Below, piece after piece: positions 725-64,000 of a stretch of DNA of 64,000 bases. The notes below the pieces were generated by a model. It had not been told where the DNA came from. It saw nothing but the letters and a program-made list of their open reading frames with translations, and did not search any database. Within the stretch, counting starts at the first letter, position 1. Every line of letters starts with the position of its first letter. Origin of the DNA: a virus. The stretch is taken from the IMG/VR virus record IMGVR_UViG_3300045988_165521, one strand, 5' to 3'. The position numbers were made by a program, and so were the translations under genes.

Positions 725-1021
725 TCAAGTATAAACGTCATCTAGAATATCAATTATAACATCACAAATTGTGACATCATCTATTTCTTGATATTCCTGT
801 TTTAATAGTTCCATAATTGAAACTACCTCTTTCATTGGATTTAATATAGAGTTTTCACTACCATTAGATCCATTATTTAAAACTGCATAATATACTTTTG
901 AATCTTTAATAAAAGTTACAGCTGCATTTTTATAAAAACCATAATCTTTTAATTCAATTTTTGGAGTATCTTTATCTTGCAGTTTTGTTATTACTTTATC
1001 ATATAATTTATTGTTTTCCAT
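725..1021 (-). CDS. hypothetical protein (98 aa)
   Basis: ORF-track ORF. Its ATG at 1019-1021 overlaps the stop of the upstream hydrolase gene. Confidence 0.6.
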   Translation of the reverse strand: MENNKLYDKVITKLQDKDTPKIELKDYGFYKNAAVTFIKDSKVYYAVLNNGSNGSENSILNPMKEVVSIMELLKQEYQEIDDVTICDVIIDILDDVYT

Positions 1022-3257
1022 ACCAGTACTTATTTATAGCTTCTCCTGCTCTTATTCTTTTATTTAGATTAGGCTTTCCTGCTCTAAGAAATAATGCTTC
1101 AAATGCTTTAGTAGCTCTAGTTAGATCTCCACTTTCTCAATCCTGCCAAGCTTGCTCTGTAGTATATCCTTTGTGCATAAAAATGCTTCTTTCTCAATCT
1201 TTTAATTTGTCTATGTCTTTTTCAGATGTATTAAGAGCTTTTTGTTTATCTTTTTCGGTGGCTCTATCTCAAGGAGTTTTAAGTATTTTATTTTTTTCAT
1301 TAAATAACTCAGAAACATATTGAACTTGTAGTGCAATAGAATCTTCTCTTCCATTTAATCATTTGTTATACAATTCTAGAGCTTTTGGTTCAAACATCAT
1401 TATACCCTTTGCTGGACCCTTTTTATTTTGTTTTAACCTAGTTCATCCTTGAGTTTCGGTATATGTATTTGCTAATACTGCATTTATTTGTGAGTCATTG
1501 CCTTTAAAGTTATCTGTAACTATTTTTGCTCATTCATAGTTTGAATTTCTTACCATTATTGGTTCATATCACGTTTTCCCAGAATTATATAATGTTTCTA
1601 TATCTCCTTTCTGCCTAGCAGTTTTATATTCATTATAAAAATCTAGTGCTTTAGTTGGATTAGTCATTAAACTATCTCTAAATTCTAATTTAGATAAATC
1701 GTTATTTGTATTTCATAAACTAACATCTTTTATTAGTTTATTAATTCTTTGATCTTTTATTACATTTGAATTACCAACTATACCCTCTGAATTTAAAGGA
1801 GGAAGTTCAATCGGCTTTGAAGGATTTTGATATTTAGGTATTTTTAATCCCAACTGAGCATATAATGTAGTATCTTTCTTTTTAGTAGGCGCTTGAGCTA
1901 CATTATTAAATAAATAAAGTAAGAAATCATCACTATATCTATTCAATAAATTATATGTATTCTCTTTATTATAATGTGGAGTAACTGTAGACTCTTCAGG
2001 TACAATTTTATATTCGGGATTAAATGGTTCTGATTGAATTATCTTTCCATCTTTATCAAATTGTGATACTGAGAAACTACCTTTACCTTCTGAATTTTTA
2101 AGTCTATTTGTAAGAGTATAATGATCTAAATGTTCCTTCTTAATATTTTGTATTTCTTCTTTAGTAAATTTATGATTAGGATCTGCATTAATACTATATC
2201 TTAACTGCATTAATCTAGCATAAATTTCTTGAGGATTATCTAAATATTCATCAGGAACGATTGTTTTATTATCATAGACAGTATCTCCAAAATTATCTTG
2301 ATACTTCTTAATTACTTTCTCTTGTGCATCAGGTAAACTACTATGAGTTCATTCATGAATTGCAGTACTAGTTGATCCATCTGTTAAAAATATTCTTCTA
2401 CCAAACGGATAATAAACTCCTGAAGCATTATCAGGGACTTTACTCGGATTTATCTTTGCTCTAGTAAGATCTAAATTTCTTTTAAGTGCATTAAATACTA
2501 AAGATTCAGTTACAGGGAGAGGAATTGGTAGAACTTGTTTAACATTTTGTTTTACTAAACCTTTACGTGATTTATATCAATCTTCAAGCCACTGTTTTCC
2601 TTCTTGAATTCCTCCTTGTTGAAATTTTAATACTCCTCCATGTTTAGCAGAAGCTATAACTTGATTTAAAATATTTGCATATCTTGGATCTGTAGCATAT
2701 CCTCCTCTATGAACTCTATTTGCAAATTCTTTTATATCTCCAGAGAATGCGTTATAACGTTTATTATTTAATAGATCAATTTTAAAGTTTGCATAATCTT
2801 CAAGTGATTTGAAATTTCTAAATTGATCATTTATATAAATATCCTTACCATTAATAACTTCTCTAGTTCGTTTAGTTGTTCCCTTTCCTTTAATACCTCC
2901 AAAATTATATGATCCTGCAGGTTTAGAACCTCAAGCTGATTCTAATCCGTCTTGTGCTACTAATGATTTAGCAAATGCAGGATTTAAACCTTTTGATTTT
3001 AATAATCTTTCATAAATAGGAAGCATTGTATCTTTGAAATCCTTTTTAGAATTGAATTTATGAACTGTAGTTTCTTGAACTATTGGTTCTGGATTTCTTA
3101 TCTCTTCTACTTGAGATTGTACTTCTGTCTCTGTATCATCTTCCAAAGGTTGAGAATATCTGGGTTTATATACAGGTATTTCAAGATTTGGAATTTGAAT
3201 ATTAATATCTCCTAAAGCACTATCTCGTATGAATGGTCTGTATGTGATATCGTTCAT
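1008..3257 (-). CDS. multi-domain peptidoglycan hydrolase-like protein (about 749 aa), translated with TGA=Trp
   Basis: One 750-codon frame is interrupted only by TGA (about ten; no TAA or TAG). Track fragments 2931..3257 and 1713..2210 are in the same frame. LVAQDGLESA[W]GSKPAGSYNFGGIKGKG resembles a glucosaminidase/FlgJ-type motif, and AIHE[W]TH is an HExxH motif. Confidence 0.8.
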
Positions 3258-33405: not shown

Positions 33406-33477
33406 GCACTCTTGATGTAACTGGTAACATGACAGTCTCCAAAACTGTTCTTTGGGGTTCGAATCCTTAAGAGTGTG
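33406..33477 (+). tRNA. tRNA-Trp(CCA)
   Basis: Acceptor GCACTCT/AGAGTGC. Anticodon arm is ACAGT-CTCCAAA-ACTGT, T arm is TGGGG-TTCGAAT-CCTTA. Confidence 0.85.
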
Positions 33478-33491
33478 CTTATATATAATTA

Positions 33492-36720: not shown

Positions 36721-37449
36721 ATGAAAACTATTAAAGAACTTTCAGATAGACAAATTAAACTTGCGTGAATTAGTAGTAAAAGTTTATATGAAATTTGTAA
36801 AAAATTAGAAATTCACGATAATACTTATAATAGAAAATATTTAAGAGTTTGAGGAGTTAAGGAAGGACTAAAAATTCCTGTTTTTACACGATTTACTAAA
36901 ACAGATTATATAAAAAATCCTAAATTGTGTAAAAAATGTAAAAAACCTATTCCTTGAAATCAAAGAGAAAATAACTTCTGTTCTCACTCTTGTGCAACTA
37001 GTTATACAAATATAAAAAGAGGTGCTATAACTAGTGGTAAATATGTCAAAAATGCAACTAGTAAATGCTTAAATTGTGGAAAGGAAATTTTTGCAAGAAA
37101 TAAATATTGTAGTATTATTTGTCAAGTTGAATTTAAATATAAGGAGTATATTCAAAGGTGGAAAGACGGGAAAGAAACAGGAATGTCTGGTACAGATGGT
37201 CTTTCAAATCATATAAGAAAATATTTATTAGATAAGACTAATTATACTTGTGAAATTCCAGGGTGTGGATGCAATTTTATTAATCCTTATACTGGATTAT
37301 CTATTTTGCAAATTCATCATATAGATGGAGATGCAACTAATAATAAAGAGCAAAATCTTCAGGTTTTATGTCCTAATCATCATGCTATGACAGAACATTT
37401 TGGCTCCAGAAATAAAAATAGTACTAGAAAGTATCGTTATAAAAAGTAA
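36721..37449 (+). mobile_element. HNH homing-endonuclease-like gene, copy 1 (242 aa, three in-frame TGA)
   Basis: A 243-codon frame is broken only by TGA. It contains the HNH motif LQIHHIDGDATNNKEQNLQVLCPNHH, Cys4 zinc-ribbon pairs and an N-terminal HTH-like region. It starts 22 nt after tRNA-Gly. Confidence 0.8.
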
Positions 37450-45405: not shown

Positions 45406-46017
45406 ATGATAAGTTGAAAATTAGAAAAAGAAAATTTAATTAAGTTCCTTATTGATGAAAAATTAAGTTTTGAAGAAGTAGGTCGTAAGTATAAATGTAG
45501 TGGTAGCAATATTAGAAAAGTAGCACAACGTTTAAATATAATTGTTCCTTCTAGAAGAGCAGTAAATCCATGCGAAACTTTTAGAAGAGGAACTGCTAAA
45601 AAAGGTATCTGTAAGAACTGTGGAAAAGAATTTATATTATATTTATCTCATAGCGGAATTTATTGTAGTAGTAAATGTCAACAAGAGTACCAATCTAAGA
45701 AAAGATATGAATTAATTCTTAATGGAGATCCTTCTATTATGAGAGCTAATTATAACCCTAGATCATCTAAGAAGTATATATTAGAGGAACAGAATAATAA
45801 ATGTGCCATTTGTGGGATGGAACCCAGTTGAAATGGGAAAGAGTTAGTTTTTATTTTAGATCATATTGACGGTCATGCTTCTAATAATAAAAGAGATAAT
45901 TTAAGATGTATATGTCCTAATTGCGATTCTCAGTTGGATACTTACAAATCTAAAAATAAAAACGGAGACAGATATTATTATAGATACTATAAAAGTAGGA
46001 GTGACCAGAATGGATAA
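45406..46017 (+). mobile_element. HNH homing-endonuclease-like gene, copy 2 (203 aa, two in-frame TGA)
   Basis: Contains MIS[W]KLEKENLIKF...CAICGMEPS[W]NGKELVFILDHIDGHASNNKRDNLRCICPNC. Its last 23 nt overlap the downstream tRNA. Confidence 0.75.
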
Positions 46018-52368: not shown

Positions 52369-52424
52369 TTTGTATATTTTCAGATTTTTTACTACCTTTG
52401 CTGTATAACTAAAGGTAGTAAAAT

Positions 52425-52862
52425 GCGAGCTTAGTGTAATGGTAGCACAGCGGTCTTCGAATTGGAGCACGCTTGGCGTGAAAATTGTGGCAAATTCGGT
52501 AAAAGCGAAATAAGATGATAAAAATCATGCGAATCAGCTTTCTAAGAAAGTCTAAGGTCCCGAAATATGGATAGCTGATAATACCGAGCTAAATTAGAGT
52601 AAAATACAGTAGAGAACATAGGCTGTCTATGCCGTGTAAAATAGGCGGAGTGCTTAGTAGGTCGAAAATTAAAGCCGTACACTTCTCTATGTATCCTACT
52701 TTACTCTATAAATGTGTAGAGACTAAATGCCACACTTGTATATCAAGCTGATATAGTCCAGACCACAAACAGTAAAACTGGTAGTGAAAACTATAGTGGT
52801 AAGCAAAACCGTATTGTAGGGCTCCAAACCCTACGGTCTCTGTTCGAATCGGAGAGCTCGTG
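52425..52862 (+). tRNA. intron-containing tRNA with anticodon TCA (TGA decoder, Trp-like) plus an extra CCA-looped arm
   Basis: The exons 52425-52457 and 52804-52862 give acceptor GCGAGCT/AGCTCGT (G1-U72), G73 and D arm GTGT-AATGGTA-GCAC. The anticodon arm is GCGGT-CTT|CAAA-ACCGT, the variable region is ATT-GTAGGG-CTCCAAA-CCCTAC-GGT, and the T arm is CTCTG-TTCGAAT-CGGAG. Confidence 0.8.
52458..52803 (+). ncRNA. group I intron (ORF-less, IC3-like) in the anticodon loop
   Basis: P1 pairs CTTC (52455-58) with GGAG (52464-67), with U52457-G52465 at the 5' splice site. The core strings TAGAGACTA (52717-25) and GATATAGTCC (52750-59) can form P7. A terminal G is at 52803. Confidence 0.75.
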
Positions 52863-52876
52863 CTAATAAGTTGATT

Positions 52877-53446
52877 ATGAGTAAGTTAAAGGAACAAATT
52901 CTTATTTTAAGAAGTGATAATAAAAGTTATAATGAAATTGCTAAGATACTTGGATGTAGCAAAAGTATTGTTGGATATTATTGTAATGATATAACTAATA
53001 GTAAACAACGAAAATCTACTTCATTATGACGTAATACACTTAAGGGGAGAATTAAATCTAGACTATGTACTTTTTGTGCTAGAATCTCTCATGGAGGTAG
53101 AAGAATCTCTAATAGAACATGACGTAAACGTTTAAGGAGATATATTGAACATTTTCAAAATAGAGGAACGAAGAGTTTAAATAAAATTAAGACTTTAGAT
53201 ATTATTAATAAATTTGGTACAAAAACAAAGTGCTATTTAACAGGTACTCCTATAGATTTAGAAAAAGATAATTATTGTTTTGATCATATAGTTCCTGTTT
53301 CTAAAGGTGGAACAAATGATTTGTCAAATTTAGGTATTACAATTCCTATTGCTAATTATTCTAAATCTGATTTAACAGTAGAAGAATATTTAGAATTATG
53401 TAAGAAAGTACTTGAACATTATGGTTATACCGTTAATAAGATATAA
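52877..53446 (+). mobile_element. HNH homing-endonuclease-like gene, copy 3 (189 aa, two in-frame TGA)
   Basis: Contains MSKLKEQILILRSDNKSYNEIAKILGC...STSL[W]RNT...NRT[W]RKR...CFDHIVPVSKGGTNDLSNLGITIPIANYSK. It starts 15 nt after the intron-containing tRNA. Confidence 0.75.
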
Positions 53447-53448
53447 CA

Positions 53449-53613
53449 ATGCAACATAGTCCTTATAAGATAAAGTATGAGCAATATTTTGTAATGTATT
53501 CTGATAGATTAAAAAGAAGGTATTATCAAGGAAAGCCTTGGGCAGAAGCAGGCTCTTATACAGTTTGAAATCTTCATTATATTAATAAAACTTATCGAAT
53601 TGTTATACAATAG
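53449..53613 (+). CDS. small YRI-tail protein (54 aa) with one in-frame TGA
   Basis: Translation is MQHSPYKIKYEQYFVMYSDRLKRRYYQGKPWAEAGSYTV[W]NLHYINKTYRIVIQ, followed by a terminator. Confidence 0.4.
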
Positions 53614-53645
53614 GCATCTAGAGTAATCTAGGTGCCTTTATTTTT
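53612..53645 (+). terminator. rho-independent terminator
   Basis: Hairpin AGGCATCTAG-agtaat-CTAGGTGCCT followed by TTTATTTTT. Confidence 0.75.
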
Positions 53646-53745
53646 AAAACGAAGAATATTATGGTAATTGGAGTATTAATTTTAGGAACATTAGTTGCTT
53701 TGGATAGTTTGGCAATTATAGAATATTTTATAGATAAAAAGTAAA

Positions 53746-54351
53746 ATGAAATCAATTTTAATAAAAATTGGGATATTAGCTGTTTTAGGTTTAACAATAT
53801 TTTTCATGGGACAAAGAATTCATGATTTAAATATTGCATTAGATAATTCAGTTAATAACGAAAAGGCTTATGCTGCAGAAAATTCTGGTTTAAAAGAAAG
53901 TAATCGAGTATTTAAATTAACTATTGAACAATTAGATTATTATAATGATTCACTTATGTTAGCTATGAAAAAAATAGCTAATGATAATGGTATTAAAGAT
54001 AAAAAAATTAAGTCTTTACAGTATCAATTAGAACATTATTCTAAAAGAGATACTTTAATTCTTAGAGATACTGTATTTAAAGATCCTAATTTTGTTCTTG
54101 ATACATGTATTATTGATCGTTGGAATAAGAGCTGTTTACACTTACAATATCCTGGTACAATTGCTCTAAGTAATGAGTATGAAAATGAAAAGTTTATTAC
54201 TTTAAGTTCTCATCGAGAACCTATTAAACCTCGTAAATGGTTTTTACCTAGATGGTTTACTAAGAAACAAACTGTAGTAGAGGTTTTAGTAGTTGATGAA
54301 AACCCTTATGTTAAAACAAAACAACAAAGATTTGTTGAAATTATAGACTAA
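53746..54351 (+). CDS. membrane-anchored hypothetical protein (201 aa)
   Basis: ORF-track ORF with an N-terminal TM followed by a coiled-coil-like segment. Confidence 0.6.
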   Translation: MKSILIKIGILAVLGLTIFFMGQRIHDLNIALDNSVNNEKAYAAENSGLKESNRVFKLTIEQLDYYNDSLMLAMKKIANDNGIKDKKIKSLQYQLEHYSKRDTLILRDTVFKDPNFVLDTCIIDRWNKSCLHLQYPGTIALSNEYENEKFITLSSHREPIKPRKWFLPRWFTKKQTVVEVLVVDENPYVKTKQQRFVEIID

Positions 54352-54352
54352 T

Positions 54353-54661
54353 ATGAAAGCTGCACTTCCAAGAGATGTTTCTTTAAATATATTATTTGTA
54401 ATAGATATCTGTAAATTAACTTTAGAAGAAAAAGGTAAACTCCAGGAAGATTTATTTGGAGTAGGAGCTTATTGGAGTAATAGTCAGAGAGTTATTATTG
54501 AAGAGGGCACGGATAATTCAGTTGGATATTATTTTATATATCCTAATCGAAGAATAACTTATTTACAAAAAGATCATAATATTTTTGATTTTACCTTTGA
54601 TCGTATTGTAGATAAAGATACTGCGCTAAATCTTTTAAGATATAGAATTTTTCTAAAGTAA
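54353..54661 (+). CDS. YRI-tail family protein (tail LLRYRIFLK)
   Basis: ORF-track ORF. Confidence 0.55.
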   Translation: MKAALPRDVSLNILFVIDICKLTLEEKGKLQEDLFGVGAYWSNSQRVIIEEGTDNSVGYYFIYPNRRITYLQKDHNIFDFTFDRIVDKDTALNLLRYRIFLK

Positions 54662-54825
54662 TGAAAAAGAAAGCTATTGCATTAATAGATTATATTGATG
54701 ATGATGGAATGATTGCATTTCAAGTTAATCAAAGAGTTAATATAATTGAATTTACAGATAATTGTCTAGTTAAAACTAAGTATGGTTATATAAAAATCTC
54801 TAAAGAATATTTAAAAATATTATAA
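54661..54825 (+). CDS. small hypothetical protein (54 aa, below cutoff)
   Basis: Translation is MKKKAIALIDYIDDDGMIAFQVNQRVNIIEFTDNCLVKTKYGYIKISKEYLKIL, with a TAATG overlap. Confidence 0.4.
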   Translation: MKKKAIALIDYIDDDGMIAFQVNQRVNIIEFTDNCLVKTKYGYIKISKEYLKIL

Positions 54826-54826
54826 A

Positions 54827-55114
54827 ATGTCTGAAAAATCTCTTTCAATTAAAATTCGAAGAGCTAGAAAAGAGCTAAGAATAATGCAAGGTGAAGCTAC
54901 TAATATTTATTCTTATCTTACTGTAATAAAGAATATTGATAAAAATAATCATATGGCTCGCAATATATATGTAAGTTTAATAGCTGACAATTTAGAGCAA
55001 TACTCAGTTAAAAGTATTACTGAACTAGAAAAACTTATTCGAAAACAGAAAAGTAAAATACGTAAATATGATCAAAGAATATGCAAATTACGGTCAACAC
55101 AAAATATGAAATAG
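54827..55114 (+). CDS. hypothetical protein (95 aa)
   Basis: ORF-track ORF. Confidence 0.5.
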   Translation: MSEKSLSIKIRRARKELRIMQGEATNIYSYLTVIKNIDKNNHMARNIYVSLIADNLEQYSVKSITELEKLIRKQKSKIRKYDQRICKLRSTQNMK

Positions 55115-55341
55115 GACAGCAGGTATATCTTTGTAAAACAAAGTTAAAATTTAAAGATGGAGATTTTGTAAACGCAAGTGTACCTAATTTGAATCCTTTT
55201 ACTGTAACTTCTATTCGGATTCATCAACATCCTAATTCTCAGAGTATTTATTATCGCTTAGATGGCTTACAAAAATCTATTCGAGAAGATCAGATTTTTG
55301 AATCTATTGAAGCAGCTAAAAAATTTTGTCATGAGCAATAG
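55081..55341 (+). CDS. hypothetical protein (86 aa)
   Basis: ORF-track ORF. Confidence 0.5.
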   Translation: MQITVNTKYEIGQQVYLCKTKLKFKDGDFVNASVPNLNPFTVTSIRIHQHPNSQSIYYRLDGLQKSIREDQIFESIEAAKKFCHEQ

Positions 55342-55840
55342 TTTTAATCATCAATCTTTTTTAAAAGCAGGAGCTGAAAAAGAACAAGAATTTGCTAATT
55401 TATTAGTTCTTAGGAATGGTGGGGTCATTTCACATTCTGATAGAAGTACAGATATTAAAGATCATATAGATCTTTTCTGAACTAAAGACAATAAAACATT
55501 TTCTTTTGATGTTAAGGGCTTAAAAAAGAGTAATTGATCAGATATTAATACCGATAGTAGTATTCATTGGATTGAAATTAGTAATGTAAGAGGAAATCCA
55601 GGCTGGTTATACGGAAAAGCAGATTATATTGCTTTTGAGACAGATAAAGAATGGCTTTTAGTAAAAAGACGTAAGTTAATTGATTTAATCAATTCGAAAG
55701 TAACAGATACTGCAGTTAAAAATACTAAAGAATTATATACTTACTATCAAAGATATGGTAAAAAAGATATAATTGTTAAGGTTTTAACTAAAGATTTAGC
55801 TGAAATAGCTTCAAAAACTATTAGTAAATGAGAAAATTAA
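55331..55840 (+). CDS. PD-(D/E)xK nuclease-like protein, translated with TGA=Trp
   Basis: The frame from ATG 55331 is broken only by TGA. DHIDLF[W]...SFDVKGLKKSN[W] gives a D...(D/E)xK pattern. The final TGA (55829-31) overlaps the mgsA ATG, so the end is either 55831 or 55840. Confidence 0.5.
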
Positions 55841-56313
55841 ATATAGCATTAGTTGCACACGATGCTAGAAAACAAGAATTAGTAGACTGGGTTAAGTTCA
55901 ATAAACAAGTTTTATTTCCACATCATTTAATAGCTACTGGAACTACCGCAAAGTTACTAAGTGAGATTAATATTGATGAGATCAGTCCAGACTGGCCAGG
56001 TAAAGGAGATTATTATAATACTTATTTAGCTGTAACTCCTGTTCTTTCAGGACCACTTGGAGGAGATCAAATGATAGGAGCTATGATTGCTCAAGGACAA
56101 ATTGATGTATTAATTTTCTTTTGTGATAATCTTATTACTCAAGGGCATCAAACTGATATATCTGCATTAACTCGTTTAGCATCATTATACAATATTGCTT
56201 TTGCAACAAATAGAACTACTGCGGACATGATTCTTACATCCTCATTATTTGGAAATGAAGATTATGTTCCTATTAAACAAGATTTTAGTTCTTATTTAAA
56301 TAGAAAATTATAG
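55828..56313 (+). CDS. mgsA: methylglyoxal synthase
   Basis: IALVAHDARKQELVDWV...IATGTTAKLL...LSGPLGGDQMIGAMIAQGQIDVLIFFCD...ALTRLASLYNIAFATNRTTADMIL aligns motif by motif with E. coli MgsA. Confidence 0.85.
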   Translation: MRKLNIALVAHDARKQELVDWVKFNKQVLFPHHLIATGTTAKLLSEINIDEISPDWPGKGDYYNTYLAVTPVLSGPLGGDQMIGAMIAQGQIDVLIFFCDNLITQGHQTDISALTRLASLYNIAFATNRTTADMILTSSLFGNEDYVPIKQDFSSYLNRKL

Positions 56314-56334
56314 ATAATTTAAAAATAAGAAGAT

Positions 56335-56733
56335 ATGAGTAAAGTAGTTAAATTTTATTACACTAGACCTCTTTCCTTTCTTGAAGTAGCAATTGTGCCA
56401 ATTCGAGAAACTGTAGCAGTACCTCAGCAAAAAACTCGTATGAGTGAGCGATATACAATTGCTGCAATATACGATGAGGAAGCTAAAACTATTAAGTTTG
56501 GTCTTGCAACATGTGTTCCTGCCGATCCTTTTGTTAAAAAGATTGGTCGAGAAATTGCTGAAAAGAGAGCAGAAACTGAACCTTTCTTTGAAGTAAAAGA
56601 TTTTGATGGAACTTTTGCAGATTTTAGGCGTTTGGTTATAGAGGTTGGTACTAATAAAGAAGAGGAATTACTTTATCGGAAGTATAACCGTTATATGCAG
56701 GCTGCTGATGAAAATCCTAGATCTAGCATTTAA
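56335..56733 (+). CDS. hypothetical protein (132 aa)
   Basis: ORF-track ORF followed by the hairpin AAAGGG-aaggtaa-CCCTTT. Confidence 0.6.
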   Translation: MSKVVKFYYTRPLSFLEVAIVPIRETVAVPQQKTRMSERYTIAAIYDEEAKTIKFGLATCVPADPFVKKIGREIAEKRAETEPFFEVKDFDGTFADFRRLVIEVGTNKEEELLYRKYNRYMQAADENPRSSI

Positions 56734-56870
56734 AGGGAAGGTAACCCTTTCTTTGGAAAAAGAACAAGACTTCTTAAAAGATTTCGAAGACTTACTAGCT
56801 AAATACGATGCCTATTTTGATGGCACAATTAGGTCTTATGAATTTGACGATTGTGAAATTATAGAAGAAA

Positions 56871-57212
56871 TTGAAGAAGTGAGAAGTTAATATTCCAATT
56901 TTTGATAAAGATATTTTAGTTATTCAGGATGAAGATATAAGTAAGATCACATCTTATTTAGAAGATATGTATTCTGTGCATCTTGAGTACCAATCTAATC
57001 TAACAGATGGTATTACTTGTATACTACCTAACGGATTAATTGTTATTGGATTAACCAATAACGATCCATATATTGCTTTACATGAATGTACTCATGCTGT
57101 ATTTGCTTTAAAAGAGATAATAGGATGATCAGATAACGATGAAGAAGTATTTTGTTATACTTTAGAATGAGTCTATAAGCATGTAACAAAGTATATAAAT
57201 TCTCATGATTAG
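56871..57212 (+). CDS. HExxH-motif protein, TGA=Trp; start uncertain
   Basis: The frame contains ...PYIALHECTHAVFALKEIIG[W]SDNDEEVFCYTLE[W]VYKHVTKYINSHD. There is no ATG before 56963 (TTG at 56871). Its end overlaps the rnhA start. Confidence 0.4.
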
Positions 57213-57645
57213 AGTATATACAGATGGTAGTTATAAACCAACATTAAATCAAGGTGGATATTCTTCAGTTATAACTGAAGATGGAAAAGTAATTAAAATT
57301 CTTTATCAAGGTTTTAAAAATACTACTAATAATAGACAAGAACTAAAAGGAGTTTTAGAAGCCTTAAAGTATTTTAAAACTCCTCAAGTTCTTGAAATTT
57401 ATTCTGATTCAAGCTATGTAGTTAGTAGTATAAATAATGGCCATGTGGCTAGATGAATCGAAGAAAAAGACGATTCAAAGAAAAATATGGATTTATGAAC
57501 TGAAATCTACAAGTTAATTCAGTTTCATAAAGTTACATTTGTCTGAGTAAAAGGACATAATAACAATGAATTTAATGAACTTGCAGATTTATATGCACAA
57601 CATGCTGCAGAATGTTTAGAATTAACAGAAGATGAAAAGTTTTAA
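57205..57645 (+). CDS. rnhA: ribonuclease HI, three in-frame TGA codons at conserved Trp positions
   Basis: Translation runs MIRVYTDGS...TTNNRQELKGVLEAL...IYSDSSYVV...HVAR[W]IEE...NMDL[W]TEI...VTFV[W]VKGHNNNEFNELADLYA. The bracketed TGAs align with the Q-W-I, D-L-W and W-V-K-G-H Trp residues of E. coli RNase HI. Confidence 0.9.
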
Positions 57646-57991
57646 ATTAAGAAAAATTGGAAATCATTGGTATCCTTGTATTGATCATGAACTTGGAGAT
57701 CCTATTAATCTTACTGAAAAAGTTGACCGATATTTAAATATATTAGATCTCTCTAAATCAGGAGAAATTACAGTAGAACTAGAAGAATTAGGAATTTTAT
57801 TTGGAGGTATAAATATTATCTATTTTAACGAAGAGGATATTGTTCGATATTTGACTACTGATGATAATTTTGATATTCGTTTTGTTGTAAACGAACATGA
57901 GTTTCTTATATCTTCTGATGTTTATTGGTTATTGGAAAATCAATTTAATTTTAATTTTCATAAGACTAGTTATAAAATTCATATTTATTAG
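57632..57991 (+). CDS. hypothetical protein (119 aa)
   Basis: ORF-track ORF. Confidence 0.55.
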   Translation: MKSFKLRKIGNHWYPCIDHELGDPINLTEKVDRYLNILDLSKSGEITVELEELGILFGGINIIYFNEEDIVRYLTTDDNFDIRFVVNEHEFLISSDVYWLLENQFNFNFHKTSYKIHIY

Positions 57992-58030
57992 AGATAGCAG
58001 AAATGCTTTGTATTTTTAACCATTATAATT

Positions 58031-58606
58031 ATGGTAGTTAAAGAAACTGCAAAAGATCCTACTGGACCTAAAGATATTAGTAGGAGAGAATGTACATTAA
58101 GTAAAGAAATTCAAGAGTTATTACTTCGACAGCTTAAACATGAATTACAAAATCATAATATATACATGAATTTTGCTAATTATTTTGGAGTTCGTGGATT
58201 TGTAGTTCTCGAAGAGTATTTTAAATTAAGAGCCGATGAAGAATATTTGCATCATAGTTGGATTCGTAAGTATTTAAATGAAAATGATGCAGAATATATT
58301 TATCCTACTATTGATCAATTTGATAAAAAGATAGTGGATATGGTTGATCCATTCAAGATGACTGTTGATCTTGAAATTGAAACTACTCAAATGATCTATG
58401 AAATAGTTGATCAAGCTGCTGCTGAATGTGATTGGGCAACGTTTAACTGGCTTAATGGTCATGATCCTGTAACAGGTATGCTTGTAAATGAGCAAGTTGA
58501 GGAAGAATCTATTAGTCGTACAGCTTTAGATATTGCAGAATCAGAAGGTTCTTGGCTTCGGAAAGAGAAGTCTATTATGAACGCTTATAAAGGCGATACT
58601 GATTAA
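58031..58606 (+). CDS. ferritin-like protein
   Basis: LKHELQNHNIYMNFANYF...LRADEEYLHHSWIRKYL...DLEIETTQMIYEIVDQA follows the spacing of ferritin-like di-iron ligands (E, ExxH, E). Confidence 0.6.
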   Translation: MVVKETAKDPTGPKDISRRECTLSKEIQELLLRQLKHELQNHNIYMNFANYFGVRGFVVLEEYFKLRADEEYLHHSWIRKYLNENDAEYIYPTIDQFDKKIVDMVDPFKMTVDLEIETTQMIYEIVDQAAAECDWATFNWLNGHDPVTGMLVNEQVEEESISRTALDIAESEGSWLRKEKSIMNAYKGDTD

Positions 58607-58617
58607 TAGTTAAATCT

Positions 58618-59418
58618 ATGTTAATTCAACTTCCAGATACAATTAAAGACTTATACTTTGTTGGCGATGTTCATGCTGGATGAAATATAGTTACTTATTA
58701 TATTCGACAATACAAAATTAAGGACTCTGTTTTTATTTTTTGTGGAGATGTTGGTATTGGATTTGAAAGTCTAATGCATTATGCTAATTGTGTAGTTCCT
58801 CAACTTCATAAGACATTAAAGAAATTTAATGACATATTTATTTGGGTTAGAGGTAATCATGATGATCCATCCTATTTTGAACAAAGGCTAATTGATACTA
58901 AATACGTAAAATGTGTTTCAGATTATGATATTATTAATGTTTGTAATTTAAACGTTTTATGTATAGGTGGAGGTATTAGTATTGATAGACAGTTTCGTAT
59001 GCAAAATGATAGTGTTAGTATAGTTAGATATATGAAATATCATAATTGTGACTATCAAACTGCAGAACTGAGTTGTCTTAAATCATATTGGCCTGATGAG
59101 CCAGTAATATATCGTCCAAAAGTAGAAGAACACATTGATATTATTTGTAGTCATTCCGCTCCTTCTTTTTGTTATCCAAATGATAAAGGAGGAATTGTAA
59201 AAGACTTTGCAGCATACGATTCTGAGTTATTAAATGATATTGACAATGAGCGAGCTGTATTAGATCGAGTATATGAGGATTATAAGAATGAAGTAACACA
59301 TTGGTATTATGGTCATTTTCATAAAAACCAAATGCAGACTATTAATAATACAATGTTTAAACTTTTAAATATTGGCGAAATTGTTCGACACTACTCAGAC
59401 AATAACAATACATTGTAA
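58618..59418 (+). CDS. calcineurin-like metallophosphoesterase, one in-frame TGA
   Basis: Contains LYFVGDVHAG[W]N, FCGDVGIG and VRGNHDD in the canonical order. The track only found 58774..59418. Confidence 0.8.
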
Positions 59419-59710
59419 GATAGTTGCTATTGAAGATGGTCAGTATACAGCTATTGTAGTAGAAGATCTGAATCGAATAGAAACAGATGATCTTAAATAT
59501 GTTACTGTTGTTAAATGTCCAAACTGAGATATTTCTACTTTTGAAATTGGAGATATAGGTTATCTTCAATTTCAATATGTAGAAGGAGGAAAGACACAAT
59601 GATACAACAAAGATTCAAAAGATTTTGAAATTTATAAATATACAAATAATTATTTTATAAGTTTTATTAAAGAAAAAGATATATGTAATCAAAAAGAATT
59701 TAATTTTTAA
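59372..59710 (+). CDS. hypothetical protein, TGA=Trp, non-ATG start likely
   Basis: The open frame ...KIVAIEDGQYTAIVVEDLNRIETDDLKYVTVVKCPN[W]DISTFEIGDIGYLQFQYVEGGKTQ[W]YNKDSKDFEIYKYTNNYFISFIKEKD... has no in-frame ATG. TTG codons are at 59372 and 59381. Confidence 0.35.
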
Positions 59711-59712
59711 AT

Positions 59713-60555
59713 ATGCGTAAAGAGACAGAATTTGGCGAGAAGTTACGTAGCGTGTTAGAATCAATTGATTCCTTAACATGGAGAGACAAAAGTGGGAATG
59801 ATGTTAAACTTGTTGATGCATCTGTAGAGGACTTACGTAAATGATATAAGCACTGTTATGAGATGTTACATAACGTTAGTCCTTGGAATCCTGGTAAGTT
59901 TATAGTTAGAGAAAACATTCATCGAACTTGAGATTCATGTAATACGGAACTATTTGTTAGATACATTCTTCATGAATGCGAAACAGATATCAAAACTAAG
60001 AAAGATATCTTAGATTATATTAATAAACAAAGAGCAGCATCTGAAAAAGATATACTAAATGATTCAATAGCAAGTATATTTAATGGTGTTCCTCCTATTT
60101 TTGAAAAAGTAACAGTAAATCGTCTTATGGATGCTTGTTTTGATAAACTTGACGTTCTTAATAAGAAAATGATTACTGATAAATTCATTTTAGCACAAGG
60201 AATTTGGCTAACGGACGAGGAAAAAATTGAGCTAACTGAAGTTGGCAAAGACGGCAAAGCAAGAAATAGAATGGAAGTTATTAAGGAACGATTGTGTTTA
60301 AATCCTGATATCAAATTAAGAGTTAGTCCTACAGGGTTATCTTTTACAGAATTTAGATCTTTAGTTCAACTTAGCTCTTTACCAAAAATTTCTTCTTTAA
60401 CTACAATTGCACTGAAAACACTAAGAGATAAGATCTTATTACTTTTAGATAACGATCTCGATTATCATATAAATAAATGAAGTACATTAATGTCTAATAT
60501 TCAACGAGTTGCGGATGCTCGAAATATTGAAATTAATCCTCCTGCAGGAAATTAA
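59713..60555 (+). CDS. hypothetical protein (280 aa), TGA=Trp
   Basis: The frame from ATG 59713 is in phase with track ORF 60127..60480. It is interrupted only by TGA (59842, 59929 and 60478) and ends with the TAA at 60553-55. Confidence 0.6.
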
Positions 60556-60600
60556 TTAGTACTAAAAATTTTATTTTTTAAATAAAAATTTGTATCTTTG

Positions 60601-61824
60601 ATGAACAGAACGGAACGTCAAAAGCTTGCTATTAGACGTTGATTAGATAGTAATGGGATAGGCACAATTGTTGCTGCAACTGGATTTGGTAAGACCTATA
60701 TGACTTGCATGTTGATAAAGGCACTATATAATAAAAATCCTAGACTATCTGTATTAATTGGAGTTCCTACAGAGGTTCTAAAAGAACAATGACTTAGAGA
60801 GTTGGCTAAAAACCAACTCTTTTCTGTCTGTAAGGTAGAGATATTTAACACTATTGTTAAAAATCAGTATACAGTTGATTTATTTGTAATTGATGAAATT
60901 CATTGCGCATGTAGTGAAAATAACATCAATATGTTTAAAGCTGTAAAATATCGTTATTTTTTAGGATTAACTGCTACATTTGAGAGATTAGACGGAAAAG
61001 AAGACCGATTATCTGAGTTTACTTATGTTTGTGATCGTATAAATATAAAGGAAGCAGTTGATAATAATTGATTATCTGATTATAGAAATTATAAAGTTTT
61101 AATTGATGTAGACTTATCTCTATATCATGAATGAAATCAGAAATTTCAAAATCTATTTTCTATATTTAATTTTGAATTTAATACAGTAATGAATTGTATT
61201 AGTCGTCCTGGTTTTGCAAGTAAATATGCAAAGAAAACAGGATGAAGTGAATCTCAAGTTAAAGGATTTGCAGCAGCTTGAATGAGAATGTTAAGAAAAC
61301 GTAAGTCTTTTGTAATGTCTCATCCTAAGAAATTTGAAATAGCAGATAAGATATTAGATGCAAGAAGTAATAAAAAAGCAATTACTTTTTCAGCTACTAT
61401 TAAAGATGCAGAATATTTTAAGAAACGAGGATATGTTTTACATAGTAAACAGAAAAAGAAGGAAAATAATACCATTATAGAAAGTTTTAACCAACAAACT
61501 ATAGGTGTATTAAGTACTTCAAAATCTTGCGACGCAGGTGTAGATATAAAAGGGTTAAGTGTTGGAATTATATTAAGTGGAGATAGTTCAAAGACAAGGA
61601 CTACGCAGAGGATTGGAAGAATTTGTCGATTCGAACAAGGTAAACTCGCAGAAATGTTTACACTAGTTATTAAGGGAACTATAGAAGAAACCTGATATAA
61701 TAACTCTAATTCAAACCAACAGTATATAACTATTGATGAATCACAATTAGATATAGTGTTAAGTGGAAAGGAGATTTCTACTAGACCAAAAAAAGGCATA
61801 ATAGATATAGAACATAGATTTTAA
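60601..61824 (+). CDS. superfamily 2 (DEAD/DEAH-type) helicase, TGA=Trp
   Basis: Motif I is AATGFGKT, motif II VIDEIH, motif III GLTAT and motif VI TQRIGRICR. The 407-aa frame is broken only by TGA codons. Confidence 0.85.
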
Positions 61825-61870
61825 TAAATAGATCTAACGTAGTACGTTTGTTTATTTTTTATCGTATTAT

Positions 61871-62476
61871 ATGGAGTTAGATACGATTCTTAATATTATG
61901 GCTAAATATAAACTAACAGCTGATGAGTTACTGTTAGTTTATTTAACGTTTATTGCTCAAACAGAAAATGGAGATCCTAAAATAAATAGGAACTATTTTC
62001 GAAGGTGATATGAAGGGGGCGGCAAAGAAAGATTACGAGAATTATTCAATTCACTAAAAGAGAAAGGAGTAATCAGGAAAAACTATAACCCAAGTACTTA
62101 TGATCCTGATGAAATTGAATTTAATCAGAATTTTATAAAACAATATTTTAAACTTTCTGGAGAGCTTGGCATGGAATTAGAGGATGCTTATCCAACTAAT
62201 TTATACTTTAATGGGAAAACAGTTAGTTTAAAAAATATTGCAAAGAAATTCTTAAATATGTCAGAATTCTACTTCTGATATTCCTCTACTATTGGACATA
62301 GTATTGAAAAGCATCGTGAAATATTAGAGATACTAGAATGAGCTAAATCTAAAGATCTTGTACAAGTTTCTATGATTGAATTTGTTTCCAGTCAAAAATG
62401 GAAAGAGTTTAAAGAAATGCGAGATAAAGGAATTAATGGCAAAGTTAGTACTGAACAACTTTACGATACTGCTTAA
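61871..62476 (+). CDS. hypothetical replication-module protein (201 aa), TGA=Trp
   Basis: The frame from ATG 61871 has three in-frame TGA and a TAATG overlap with the DnaB-like gene. Confidence 0.55.
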
Positions 62477-63600
62477 TGTCTATTGTAGATGAATTATATT
62501 CTGAAATTGACAATGGTAGAGAAGGTAGAAACTTAGGTTTAAAAACTGGATTGCCAAAGTTGGATTGATATACAGGCGGATTCCAAAAAGGAGTTTACAA
62601 ATTAATATTTGGACAAAGTGGTTCAGGTAAAAGTTCATATGTAATATATTCTGATTTATATCGTATATTACGAGATTATCCAGATAGAGATATTGTACAT
62701 GTATATTTTAGTCTGGAAATGAGTTCGAAAGTTTTACTTGCTAAATTGCTTAATCTATATATATATGATACTTATGGAATAGAAATTTCTTATATGACAC
62801 TAATGTCCGTTCGAGAAAAACTATCTGATAAATATTATAAGTATATTCAAGAGTCCAGAGTATGACTAAACTCAATCATACATAAGCTTATTATCTTTGA
62901 TAAACAGCTAAGTTCTAATACTTTCTATGGTAATATGAAAGAACTTCTAAAACAATGAGGTACTTTTCAAGATATTGATGAAGGTAGAAGAAATATTTAT
63001 ATTCCAAGTAATCCCGATAAAATAATAAATGTAATAATTGATCATGCTGGTTTATTAACTCCAGTTGATGGTAGAACTAAAAAACAGGAAATTGATCAAA
63101 CCTCGCAATACTGCGTTTATTTTAGAGAAAAGTGTGGAATATCTATTGACTTTATTATGCAAGAAAATAGAAACACAAGTGATGTAAATAGATTAAAAAT
63201 GGATCTTGCAGAGCCAACCCTTGATGATGTTAAGGATTCTGGTAATGCAGGTAATGACTGTAATATTTGTGTTGCAGTATATAATCCTATAAAACATCAA
63301 CGTAGTACTTATAGAGGATATACTATCATTAATAAAGAATATCCAGAAGAATCTTTAGGTTCTGCTATGCGTGGATTAATATTATTAAAACATCGATTTG
63401 GAGTTGCAAATAAAGTTTTTTGTACTGGCTTTCAAGGTAGTTTAGGACGATTTGAGGAACTTCCTGATCCAGGAAGTATTAATTATGAAGTATATCAATC
63501 TTGAAAAGATGAGAAGTTAGAAGATGAAATAACAAAAGATACAGCTGCAAAAGATGCAGAAGAAAAAGATAGCTTACAAAAACCAATATTCAAATTTTAA
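62476..63600 (+). CDS. DnaB-like (RecA-fold) replicative helicase domain protein, TGA=Trp
   Basis: Walker A is FGQSGSGKS; SLEM, IIDHAGL and LKHRFG follow in DnaB C-terminal order. The track only found 63157..63504. Confidence 0.8.
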
Positions 63601-63602
63601 AT

Positions 63603-63710
63603 ATGGCTATCACATTACCAACAAACAAAATTCCTGCAGAAACTCAGGACCCAAGAAATTTAATTATTTTCTCAAAACCAAAATACGGTGGCTTTCGCCG
63701 TGTATTATAG
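63603..63710 (+). CDS. 35-aa ORF resembling the N-terminus of a P-loop ATPase, truncated within the P-loop
   Basis: Translation is MAITLPTNKIPAETQDPRNLIIFSKPKYG then GFRRVL-stop. The break coincides with the hairpin ACGGTGGCTTTCGCCGT, and an endonuclease-like ORF follows. Confidence 0.35.
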   Translation: MAITLPTNKIPAETQDPRNLIIFSKPKYGGFRRVL

Positions 63711-63801
63711 TAATATAATACTTATGAATGGGCAAAAACGGTGAATTCTAAAAATTTGCCATATATTTACATTCTTAGTTGGAATTTCCAGAATCTTTAT
63801 G

Positions 63802-63809
63802 TAAATTTG
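63802..63809 (+). promoter_or_regulatory. Bacteroidota-type -7 box candidate (TAnnTTTG)
   Basis: TAAATTTG lies 31 nt upstream of the ATG at 63841. Confidence 0.35.
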
Positions 63810-63840
63810 CATTATTAATTTTTAAACTAAAATAATTATT

Positions 63841-64000
63841 ATGCAAATTAAAAGACAAAAATATTCGTATGAATTATTACAAGAGTGTTCAAATTATTTA
63901 AATACACACTCTCTTAAGGAAACAGCTATACACTATAACCTTAGTTATAAAACAATGATAAATGGGTTAATTAGGTTTGGATTTTATACTCCAACTAGAA
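63841..64000 (+). mobile_element. partial ORF resembling the N-terminal HTH region of the HNH endonuclease family (copy 4, truncated by the window end)
   Basis: MQIKRQKYSYELLQECSNYLNTHSLKETAIHYNLSYKTMINGLIRFGF parallels the N-termini of copies 1-3 (for example SYNEIAKILGCSKSIVGYY). Confidence 0.4.

What the first reader, a model, noticed from the sequence alone, without database searches (positions are those of the whole stretch)
55331..63600. TGA is a sense codon (Trp) across the replication-type gene block
From 55331 to 63600 nearly every recognisable gene is open only if TGA is read through, and TAA and TAG remain stops. The clearest case is RNase HI (57205-57645). Its three in-frame TGAs fall on the Trp residues of the Q-W-I, D-L-W and W-V-K-G-H motifs of E. 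coli RNase HI. The same holds for the metallophosphoesterase (GDVHAG[W]), the SF2 helicase, the DnaB-like helicase and several unknowns. The six-frame track, which uses the standard code, shows only fragments here. Stop-codon recoding is known in phages. Here the decoder tRNA and the recoded genes are visible in one window.
Basis: partly seen in the sequence, partly recalled or inferred. Interest (0 to 1): 0.7.

Follow-up and report, generated by a model that had tools for sequence, protein, structure and literature searches.

The report
Phage reads TGA as tryptophan
This piece of a very common ~170-kb gut phage reads the stop codon TGA as tryptophan in its replication and lysis genes but not in its early genes, which is a known phage trick; its TGA-reading tRNA sits in the same window but standard tRNA finders miss it, because a self-splicing intron splits it and it carries an extra arm that looks like a tryptophan anticodon.

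Summary
In the 14 genes of 55331-63600 there are 29 in-frame TGA, 0 TAA and 0 TAG. Every gene ends in TAA or TAG. Coding density rises from 53% to 98% when TGA is read as sense.

TGA means Trp. The three RNase HI TGAs align to Trp in solved RNase HI structures. In relatives, invariant Trp columns switch between TGA and TGG, and the most distant relatives use only TGG.

The recoding is patchy. MGS-like, ferritin-like and some unknown genes never use TGA in any relative. A 44-kb early block upstream has 124 TGG and no sense TGA. A lysin gene on the minus strand at the window start has 11 TGAs.

The decoder is in the window, but default tRNA finders and Rfam miss it. It is a tRNA(UCA) at 52425-52862, split after U34 by a 346-nt group I-like intron. 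Its long variable arm ends in the loop CUCCAAA, which is identical to a tRNA-Trp anticodon loop. The arm's stem covaries across dozens of phage tRNA(UCA) genes.

Phage TGA-to-Trp recoding is already known (Borges et al.). The intron-split decoder with an anticodon-like extra arm is the part I could not find described.

The parts
55331..55840 (+). Gene of unknown function with 3 in-frame TGAs (55478, 55535, 55829) and 3 TGG
   Evidence: (called as 169 aa in L015). 55535 is CGA/AGA (Arg) in most relatives.
55828..56313 (+). MGS-like domain gene. It has no TGA and uses only TGG in all relatives.
56871..57212 (+). Gene of unknown function with in-frame TGAs at 57126 and 57168
57205..57645 (+). RNase HI with in-frame TGAs at 57454, 57496 and 57544 and no TGG
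   Evidence: Pfam RNase_H 1.8e-29. All three TGAs align to Trp in PDB RNase HI chains. Relatives have TGA or TGG at these sites.
58031..58606 (+). Ferritin-like gene with 4 TGG and no TGA. All relatives use TGG.
58618..59418 (+). Metallophosphoesterase with one TGA at 58681 (GDVHAG[W])
   Evidence: Among near-identical strains this site is TGG in 8 and TGA in 7.
59372..59710 (+). Gene of unknown function with TGAs at 59525 and 59600
   Evidence: Relatives have TGA or TGG.
59713..60555 (+). Gene of unknown function with TGAs at 59842, 59929 and 60478, plus 3 TGG
60601..61824 (+). SF2 helicase (ResIII + Helicase_C) with 7 in-frame TGAs and no TGG
   Evidence: Four of the TGAs lie in Trp columns that are invariant in 120 homologs. 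At the DNA level these columns alternate between TGA and TGG.
61871..62476 (+). Gene of unknown function with TGAs at 62006, 62276 and 62339
62476..63600 (+). DnaB-like helicase with TGAs at 62566, 62863, 62956 and 63502 and no TGG
   Evidence: Pfam DnaB_C
52425..52457 (+). 5' exon of the decoder tRNA(UCA). It ends in ...GCGGUCUU, at U34.
   Evidence: The same exon end is followed by five different inserts, or by none, in relatives.
52458..52803 (+). 346-nt group I-like intron inside the anticodon. Its guide sequence UUGGAG lies at 52462-52467 and its last base is G.
   Evidence: Rfam Intron_gpI scores 19.8 bits, E = 0.009 in a local search, below the gathering score of 50. The sequence comes and the intron variants.
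52804..52862 (+). 3' exon of tRNA(UCA). It begins CAAAACCGU and holds a variable arm GUAGGG-CUCCAAA-CCCUAC, the T arm, the acceptor strand and discriminator G73.
   Evidence: ARAGORN calls the spliced sequence a 93-nt tRNA(tca). The variable-arm stem covaries.
52877..53446 (+). HNH endonuclease gene just after the tRNA, with 2 in-frame TGAs. It is absent from some strains.
   Evidence: Pfam HNH_4. Window 52864-53609 is missing from L016 and L008.
33406..33478 (+). Ordinary phage tRNA-Trp(CCA) with anticodon loop CUCCAAA
8600..52368 (+). Early/auxiliary block readable in both codes. Its 74 ORFs hold 124 TGG and no sense TGA, apart from two inserted HNH genes.
1008..3257 (-). 749-aa glucosaminidase plus phage-tail-lysozyme gene with 11 in-frame TGAs and 3 TGG
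36721..37449 (+). HNH-like mobile endonuclease gene with 3 in-frame TGAs inside the TGA-free block
   Evidence: It is absent from strain L162.
45406..46017 (+). HNH/EndoVII-like endonuclease gene with 2 in-frame TGAs. It is homologous to the ORF inside the tRNA intron of L042.

Best explanation
The window comes from a widespread ~170-kb gut phage that runs two genetic codes.

A 44-kb block of early and auxiliary genes can be read in either code: it uses only TGG for Trp and has no sense TGA. The replication genes at 55.3-63.6 kb, a lysin gene at the other end of the window and the mobile HNH genes use TGA as a Trp codon. TAA and TAG remain the only stops.

TGA is decoded by a phage tRNA with anticodon UCA at 52425-52862, between the two blocks. 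This gene is interrupted between U34 and C35 by a 346-nt group I-type intron, so a working decoder exists only after splicing.

The mature tRNA has bacterial tRNA-Trp acceptor features (G73). It also carries an extra arm whose 7-nt loop, CUCCAAA, copies the tRNA-Trp anticodon loop.

Shown here: TGA is in frame and equals Trp; the code use is patchy; the exons and the insertion site are defined; the extra arm is conserved with a covarying stem.

Inferred: the intron self-splices; the host uses the standard code and its TrpRS charges this tRNA; the extra arm acts as a pseudo-anticodon that restores TrpRS recognition lost by the C34-to-U change; expression and splicing of the tRNA time the switch from early to middle and late translation.
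For: Stop-codon counts by frame and coding density.

Trp identity: RNase HI against PDB; TGA/TGG polymorphism among strains 94-99.9% identical; helicase Trp columns alternating TGA and TGG, with TGG-only distant relatives L084, L091, L096 and L099; family-wide tally with W as plurality at 14 of 26 sites and 42% of non-TGA cells.

Patchiness: 124 TGG against 0 sense TGA in 74 early ORFs, with stops TAA 58, TAG 12 and TGA 4; lysin with 11 TGAs; ferritin-like and MGS-like genes TGG-only in all relatives.

Decoder: ARAGORN in intron mode finds the split tRNA. The exon end ...GGTCTT is followed by inserts of 341, 346, 360, 629, 633 or 707 nt, or by none (L087), and then always by CAAAACC. The spliced sequence is called as a tRNA(tca). 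Rfam gives a group I hit with the conserved core segments aligned. The guide sequence UUGGAG is complementary to the joined exons CUU|CAA, with a U.G pair at the splice site (read).

Extra arm: 44 distinct arms are 87% paired, with a covariation score of 0.943 against 0.226 +/- 0.03 in shuffles, 0 of 500 reaching it. Of 63 distinct long-arm tRNA(UCA) genes found without requiring the motif, 29 carry TCCAAA. G73 is present in 48 of 48.

Relatives carry intron-less or short tRNA(UCA) genes at the same place.

The nearest deposited phages infect Bacteroidota.
Against: - There is no protein-level evidence.
- The group I hit is below Rfam's gathering score, and the longer introns of relatives give no hit.
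- Some relatives (L040, L050, L086) manage with a short tRNA(UCA) that lacks the extra arm, so the arm is not essential.
- The invariance of TCCAAA was imposed by the search pattern. Only one search is an unbiased sample.
- Some bacterial tRNA-Sec genes also have UCCAAA in that loop.
- The host was not identified, and its genetic code is only inferred.
- No release factor or TrpRS gene was seen in the window. The rest of the genome was not examined.
Confidence: 0.85

Rival explanations
1. The host itself uses code 4 (TGA = Trp, as in Mycoplasma and Spiroplasma), and the phage simply matches its host. No switch takes place.
For: TGA is almost never a stop anywhere in the window, at most 4 times in 74 early ORFs. 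The G+C content is low, 27-35%.
Against: The 74 early ORFs hold 124 TGG and 0 sense TGA, whereas a native low-GC code 4 genome would favour TGA throughout. Three of the four TGA-ending ORFs stop in ATGA overlaps with the next start codon, as expected for real stops. The phage carries its own tRNA(UCA). Distant relatives use the standard code. The nearest deposited phages infect Flavobacterium, Bacteroides and Cellulophaga.
Confidence: 0.06
2. TGA is read at low efficiency by near-cognate tRNA-Trp(CCA), from the host or from the phage copy at 33406-33478. This would be leaky readthrough with no dedicated decoder.
For: A tRNA-Trp(CCA) is encoded in the window. From general knowledge, tRNA-Trp(CCA) can misread UGA, as in the Hirsh suppressor and in B. 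subtilis.
Against: Genes with 7 or 11 TGAs could not be made by leaky readthrough. A tRNA(UCA) is present and conserved across the family.
Confidence: 0.03
3. The TGAs mark broken genes: pseudogene fragments, or sequencing or assembly errors.
For: Under code 11 the block looks fragmented.
Against: There are no in-frame TAA or TAG codons in 2722 codons, against 115-187 TAA in the other frames. The same TGAs are found in thousands of independent assemblies. TGA sits in conserved Trp columns.
Confidence: 0.005
4. TGA encodes another residue: Gly (code 25), Sec, Cys, or Ser via the long variable arm of the tRNA.
For: ARAGORN labels the spliced tRNA as SeC under code 11. A long variable arm plus G73 resembles bacterial tRNA-Ser (general knowledge).
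Against: At TGA-aligned sites, relatives have Trp in 345 cells, Ser in 15, Gly in 7 and Cys in 7. The tRNA has a 7/5 acceptor/T architecture and a 4-bp D stem, not the 8/5 and 6 bp of tRNA-Sec.
Confidence: 0.02

Closest known systems
TGA-to-Trp (code 4) recoded gut phages of Borges et al. (Jade, Sapphire and Agate clades; bioRxiv 10.1101/2021.08.26.457843)
   Same: Large phages of presumed standard-code hosts. They have in-frame TGA that aligns with Trp, a phage suppressor tRNA, TGA depleted as a stop codon, heavily recoded lysis genes, and homing endonucleases that prefer TGA.
   Different: In the Agate examples shown there, the replication genes use the standard code; here they are recoded. 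That study detected suppressor tRNAs in only 35% of code 4 genomes and describes neither an intron-split tRNA nor an extra anticodon-like arm. Clade membership, which rests on a terminase tree, was not tested here.
Group I introns in bacterial tRNA anticodon loops (cyanobacterial tRNA-Leu(UAA), Azoarcus tRNA-Ile; general knowledge)
   Same: The intron is inserted within the anticodon. The 5' exon ends in U paired to G of a guide sequence. The intron ends in G. The conserved core segments AAAUUCGG and GUAGAGACUAAAUGCCAC...GAUAUAGUC are aligned by Rfam.
   Different: The host gene is a stop-codon suppressor tRNA of a phage. The site carries several unrelated inserts in relatives, some with HNH or other ORFs. 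The Rfam score is below the family threshold.
Engineered tRNAs with a pseudo-anticodon in the variable arm (Mukai 2020, PMC7590224)
   Same: A hairpin in the variable arm copies an anticodon arm, so that a synthetase's anticodon-binding domain can be recruited while the real anticodon reads a stop codon.
   Different: Those tRNAs are synthetic, His-specific and need a fused extra binding domain. Here the arm is natural and Trp-like, and its function is untested.
Theta ribozymes next to phage suppressor tRNAs (PMC10879173)
   Same: An RNA-processing element is attached to the suppressor tRNA of recoded gut phages and is proposed to control the code switch.
   Different: Those are HDV-like cleaving ribozymes that flank mostly TAG (Gln) suppressors. 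Here the element is a splicing intron inside a TGA suppressor.
Native code 4 bacteria (Mycoplasma, Spiroplasma) with tRNA-Trp(UCA)
   Same: UGA is read as Trp by a UCA tRNA, and TAA and TAG are the stops.
   Different: Code 4 is genome-wide there and the tRNA is short. Here only part of the genome is recoded, and the tRNA is of the long-arm type and split by an intron.

Membership tests
Stop-codon-recoded (code 4) phage | Conserved genes are open only if TGA is read as sense, and coding density rises by well over 5-10% under code 4 | tested here: met
   53% rises to 98% in 55331-63600, with 29 in-frame TGA and 0 TAA or TAG
Stop-codon-recoded (code 4) phage | In-frame TGA aligns with Trp in homologs | tested here: met
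Stop-codon-recoded (code 4) phage | Phage-encoded suppressor tRNA with anticodon UCA | tested here: met
   Split tRNA(UCA) at 52425-52862. Not reported by default ARAGORN or by Rfam.
Stop-codon-recoded (code 4) phage | Part of the genome stays compatible with the standard code (a code-switch layout) | tested here: met
   124 TGG against 0 sense TGA in 74 ORFs of 8600-52368
Stop-codon-recoded (code 4) phage | The host uses the standard code | not testable with these tools
   Indirect evidence only: the nearest deposited phages infect Bacteroidota, and one homolog is labelled Bacteroidales MAG
Stop-codon-recoded (code 4) phage | Peptides show Trp at TGA positions | not testable with these tools
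   No proteomic data are available
Agate clade (Borges et al.) | Placement in the large-terminase tree | not tested
   The terminase gene lies outside the window and the fetched flanks
Group I intron | Match to the Rfam Intron_gpI model at its gathering score | tested here: inconclusive
   19.8 bits against a gathering score of 50, E = 0.009 in a 521-nt search, full-length alignment with core segments matched. No hit for the L042 intron.
Group I intron | The 5' exon ends in U paired with G of an internal guide sequence, the guide also pairs with the 3' exon, and the intron ends in G | tested here: met
   Exon ...CUU | intron CGAAUUGGAG...UAAG | exon CAA.... The guide UUGGAG pairs with CUU (U.G at the splice site) and with CAA (sequence). 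The exon borders are fixed by the intron-less allele in L087.
Group I intron | Self-splicing activity | not testable with these tools
   Needs an in vitro splicing assay
Bacterial tRNA-Trp identity set | Discriminator G73 | tested here: met
   G73 in the window tRNA and in 48 of 48 related long-arm tRNA(UCA) genes
Bacterial tRNA-Trp identity set | Anticodon CCA | tested here: not met
   The anticodon is UCA. A CCA occurs only in the variable-arm loop CUCCAAA.
Bacterial tRNA-Trp identity set | A1-U72 pair (as in E. coli tRNA-Trp; from memory) | tested here: not met
   The window tRNA has G1.U72. A1-U72 is present in 35 of 48 related genes.
tRNA-Sec | 8-bp acceptor with 5-bp T stem, and a 6-bp D stem | tested here: not met
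   7-bp acceptor and 4-bp D stem. True selC genes found differ visibly.

The most novel reading that the evidence does not exclude
The decoder tRNA(UCA) is a two-headed adaptor. Its real anticodon reads UGA. A second, anticodon-like arm (loop NUCCAAA) presents the Trp anticodon to the host TrpRS, so a standard-code cell charges it with Trp. The group I intron inside the real anticodon makes the code switch depend on RNA splicing. Intron-split genes of this kind would also explain why most TGA-recoded phages seem to lack a suppressor tRNA.
Probability: 0.35. Interest if true: 0.8.

Novelty: new variant of a known kind. Interest (0 to 1): 0.55.

Why it matters
TGA-to-Trp recoding in gut phages is established, so the recoding itself adds one more very abundant example. 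It also shows that replication genes, and not only late genes, can be recoded.

The useful part is the decoder. Published surveys found suppressor tRNAs in only about a third of code 4 phages, and they left two questions open: how a standard-code host charges such a tRNA, and what triggers the switch. This window gives testable answers.

- The tRNA gene can be hidden by an intron in the anticodon, so standard tRNA finders miss it.
- Maturation needs splicing, which is a possible timer for the switch.
- A conserved extra arm copies the Trp anticodon loop and is a candidate TrpRS handle.

If the extra arm works that way, it would be a natural design for orthogonal suppressor tRNAs.

Tried and rejected
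- Megablast of 46000-64000 against GenBank phages found nothing. tblastn of the helicase found only distant hits of 25-41% identity, so no annotated relative was available.
- ARAGORN at default and lowered thresholds, and Rfam in gathering and E-value modes over the whole window, reported no tRNA(UCA). Only ARAGORN's intron mode found the split gene, and it misnamed it tRNA-Ala(cgc).
- A scan for CUUCAAA-type loops with 5-bp stems found no other candidate decoder.
- Rfam on whole relative loci and on the L042 intron gave no group I hit.
The rest of the ~170-kb genome was therefore not searched for release factor, TrpRS or structural genes.
- A Bacteroidetes-type promoter motif search gave no match, and the sigma-70 scan was at chance level.
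- I tested whether other loci that carry the extra-arm tRNA gain coding density under code 4. The support was only weak: 20 of 34 loci gained at least 10%, against 10 of 34 for the TAG control.
- The odd tRNA at 13418-13488 (6-nt anticodon loop) was considered as the decoder and rejected, because it has no UCA.
- Four literature searches found no description of a natural pseudo-anticodon arm or of an intron-split suppressor tRNA. The library is incomplete, so this is not proof of novelty.

Full report
WHAT THE WINDOW IS. The window has 27-42% G+C and almost all of its genes lie on the + strand. It carries about 26 tRNA genes and a tmRNA. Exact-protein look-ups place it in contigs of 164-178 kb that recur in thousands of public assemblies. 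One example is ENA ERZ28564739 scaffold_78, 169,727 bp. No close relative exists among deposited phage genomes. The nearest helicase hits are uncultured human faecal phages (39-41% identity), followed by Flavobacterium, Bacteroides and Cellulophaga phages. It is therefore a piece of a very common, uncultured ~170-kb gut phage, probably of a Bacteroidota host. The host is an inference.

THE OBSERVATION. In 55331-63600 the + strand genes hold 2722 codons, with 29 in-frame TGA, 0 TAA and 0 TAG. The other two frames hold 115-187 TAA and 70-84 TAG. All 14 genes end in TAA or TAG. ORFs of at least 60 aa cover 53% of the region under code 11, 98% with TGA as sense and 57% with TAG as sense. This rules out pseudogenes and errors. 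Several public gene callers had already called these genes full length: RNase H at 146 aa, the helicase at 407 aa and DnaB at 374 aa. Pfam confirms RNase H, metallophosphoesterase, SF2 helicase and DnaB_C on the read-through products.

WHICH AMINO ACID. Three lines of evidence point to Trp.

- The three RNase HI TGAs align with Trp in solved RNase HI chains. These are K-R-W in 3h08 and K-G-W in 2e4l for the first, D-L-W for the second, and W-V-K-G-H in 2e4l and 4ly7 for the third.
- Among strains 94-99.9% identical to the window, TGA and TGG interchange at 58681 (8 TGG, 7 TGA), 60478, 61132 and 55652.
- I fetched DNA of 80 relatives from IMG/VR and read the codons. In the helicase, the four Trp columns that are invariant in 120 homologs alternate between TGA and TGG. 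Four distant relatives (L084, L091, L096, L099) use only TGG.

Over all genes, 26 window TGA sites have data. TGG is the plurality non-TGA codon at 14 of them. It fills 345 of 821 non-TGA cells, against a background Trp frequency of 1.9%. Gly and Cys fill 7 cells each and Ser fills 15. Conversely, window TGG sites are TGA in 117 cells of relatives. So TGA means Trp, not Gly, Sec, Cys or Ser.

THE RECODING IS PATCHY AND WIDER THAN THE FINDING. Inside the block, the MGS-like and ferritin-like genes and two unknowns have no TGA. They use only TGG in every relative, even at below 60% identity, so TGA avoidance there looks selected.

Upstream, 8600-52368 holds 74 ORFs with 124 TGG and no sense TGA. 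Their stops are TAA 58, TAG 12 and TGA 4. Three of the four TGA stops sit in ATGA overlaps with the next start codon and are followed by TAA or TAG within 0-17 codons. The named genes in this block are ClpP, Band 7, RNA ligase, radical SAM, AAA ATPases, MgtC, YqeY, NUDIX, methyltransferase, DnaJ, HD, IMPDH-like, MoxR and CobT-like. The only TGA users in the block are mobile HNH endonuclease genes at 36721-37449 and 45406-46017.

At the other end of the window, on the minus strand, a 749-aa glucosaminidase plus tail-lysozyme gene (1008-3257) has 11 in-frame TGAs and 3 TGG.

The layout therefore has an early block readable in both codes, with replication, lysis and homing-endonuclease genes that need TGA = Trp. 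This matches the code-switch picture of Borges et al. That study also reports lysis genes and an intron endonuclease as preferentially recoded, TGA depleted as a stop, and variable recoding of replication genes.

THE DECODER. Default ARAGORN and Rfam report no tRNA(UCA), only tRNA-Trp(CCA) at 33406-33478. Relatives, however, carry tRNA(UCA) genes about 9 kb upstream of the helicase.

At the matching place in the window, ARAGORN's intron mode finds a split tRNA at 52425-52863. It names this tRNA-Ala(cgc) with a 344-nt intron. Comparison with relatives fixes the true borders. The 5' exon always ends ...GCGGTCTT. It is followed by an insert of 341, 346, 360, 629, 633 or 707 nt, or by nothing (L087), and then always by CAAAACCGT. 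Joining the exons gives the anticodon loop CUUCAAA, so the anticodon is UCA. ARAGORN calls the joined sequence a 93-nt tRNA(tca).

The 346-nt insert (52458-52803) matches Rfam's group I intron model over its full length, with the conserved core segments aligned. The score is 19.8 bits with E = 0.009 in a local search, below the gathering score of 50. Read directly from the sequence:

- the 5' exon ends in U;
- the intron ends in G;
- UUGGAG at 52462-52467 pairs with CUU of the 5' exon, with U.G at the splice site, and with CAA of the 3' exon.

This is the guide-sequence arrangement of group I introns. The longer inserts of relatives carry ORFs, including an HNH gene with in-frame TGA, but give no Rfam hit. 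In the window the intron has no convincing ORF. An HNH gene with two TGAs follows the tRNA at 52877-53446 and is missing from some strains.

THE EXTRA ARM. The mature tRNA is of the long-arm type. After the anticodon arm comes a hairpin, GUAGGG-CUCCAAA-CCCUAC. Its 7-nt loop is identical to the anticodon loop of the phage's own tRNA-Trp(CCA).

A pattern scan of IMG/VR for UCA-anticodon tRNAs with TCCAAA between the anticodon and T arms returned 60 stretches, 50 of which ARAGORN calls tRNA(UCA). Their acceptor and D arms are very diverse. In 44 distinct arms the stem is 87% paired, with a covariation score of 0.943 against 0.226 +/- 0.03 in shuffles (0 of 500), and at most 0.27 when the pairing partner is slid.

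Because that scan required the motif, I ran a second scan that did not. Of 63 distinct long-arm tRNA(UCA)-like genes, 29 carry TCCAAA in the arm loop and about 10 more carry a CCA-containing loop such as UUCCAAC or GUCCAUA. The rest look like tRNA-Sec.

In 596 Gb of bacterial genomes the motif pattern gave three kinds of hit:

- mostly chance matches in coding sequence;
- about 30 true selC genes with an 8-bp acceptor;
- about 8 phage-like genes on MAG contigs.

All 48 phage-type genes have discriminator G73. Of these, 35 have A1-U72 and 9, including the window's, have G1.U72.

From general knowledge, bacterial TrpRS recognises mainly the CCA anticodon and G73. The simplest reading is therefore that the arm is a pseudo-anticodon that keeps a UCA tRNA chargeable with Trp in a standard-code host. 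An engineered precedent exists (Mukai 2020). I found no description of a natural one. Two facts argue against necessity: relatives L040, L050 and L086 use a short tRNA(UCA) without the arm, and a few tRNA-Sec genes also carry UCCAAA there. This step remains a hypothesis.

HOW IT MOST LIKELY WORKS. Early genes are translated with the host's standard code. The tRNA(UCA) gene lies at the border of the TGA-free block, 2.5 kb before the first non-mobile recoded gene. It is transcribed, its intron splices out, and it is charged with Trp. Once it competes with RF2, replication genes and later lysis genes can be translated, and so can the homing endonucleases. The steps from splicing onward are inferred. 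No release factor or TrpRS gene lies in the window or in the flanks I could read. About 100 kb of the genome was not examined.

COMPARISON AND NOVELTY. As a TGA-to-Trp recoded phage, this meets every defining feature I could test. It is a member of a known kind. Its size and habits resemble the Agate/Jade/Sapphire clades, but clade membership was not tested. Three things differ from published descriptions that I could read:

- the replication genes are recoded;
- the decoder tRNA is split by a group I-type intron within the anticodon, which hides it from routine tRNA finders;
- it carries a conserved Trp-anticodon-like extra arm that is shared by many other phage tRNA(UCA) genes.

VERDICT. The recoding itself is ordinary for this field. 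The decoder's architecture deserves follow-up.

Noticed in passing
window 21965-22345 (+): Phage-encoded tmRNA (Rfam 100.4 bits). ARAGORN predicts an unusually long 28-residue tag, ANNIFSRIINKVETALFGDIEGVALIAA. It could matter for ribosomes stalled at UGA during a code switch, but this was not examined.
   Followed up: no
window 13418-13488 (+): tRNA-like gene (Rfam tRNA 48.8 bits) with a 6-nt anticodon loop. ARAGORN cannot assign an anticodon and reports '(tg)', Gln or Thr.
   Followed up: partly
window 45995-46082 (+): tRNA-Arg(UCU) of 88 nt with an unusually long extra arm and an irregular D arm. The end of the HNH ORF 45406-46017 overlaps its first bases.
   Followed up: partly
window 36721-37449, 45406-46017, 52877-53446; L016, L008, L162: Three HNH-type endonuclease genes use in-frame TGA although they sit in or next to the TGA-free block. 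They are present in some strains and absent from others. The 45406 gene is homologous to the ORF inside the tRNA(UCA) intron of relatives L042 and L049.
   Followed up: partly
window 15997-15999, 23763-23765, 36113-36115, 36367-36369: Four early ORFs end in TGA under code 11, three of them in ATGA stop/start overlaps. Once TGA is decoded they would be extended by 0-17 codons.
   Followed up: partly
window 4000-8000: A G+C-rich island (39-42% against 27-35% elsewhere) lies at the junction of the minus-strand and plus-strand gene blocks. Its ORFs at 4900-5352, 5927-6460 and 6620-7093 have no Pfam match.
   Followed up: partly
window 55828-56313, 57632-57991, 58031-58606: The MGS-like gene, the ferritin-like gene and one unknown gene inside the recoded block use only TGG for Trp in every relative examined. 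This suggests they must be translatable without the suppressor, or were acquired from standard-code sources.
   Followed up: partly
L040 776-847, L050 681-752, L086 1496-1568: Some relatives of the same phage family carry a short (72-73 nt) tRNA(UCA) with G73, no extra arm and no intron, at the equivalent place.
   Followed up: partly
L209, L212, L216, L221, L227, L281, L284 and others (genome contigs): tRNA-Sec genes of Caulobacterales, Bryobacterales, a Rubripirellula MAG and an Acidimicrobiaceae MAG also have UCCAAA in the loop of their variable arm.
   Followed up: no
window ~63841-64000 and L015 15811-16614: A LAGLIDADG endonuclease gene (267 aa) starts right after the DnaB-like gene at the window's end. 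Further replication genes (AAA_24, Toprim) follow beyond the window.
   Followed up: no
window 53612-53637 (+): The only terminator-like hairpin in 51800-55400 lies just after the tRNA(UCA)-HNH unit.
   Followed up: no
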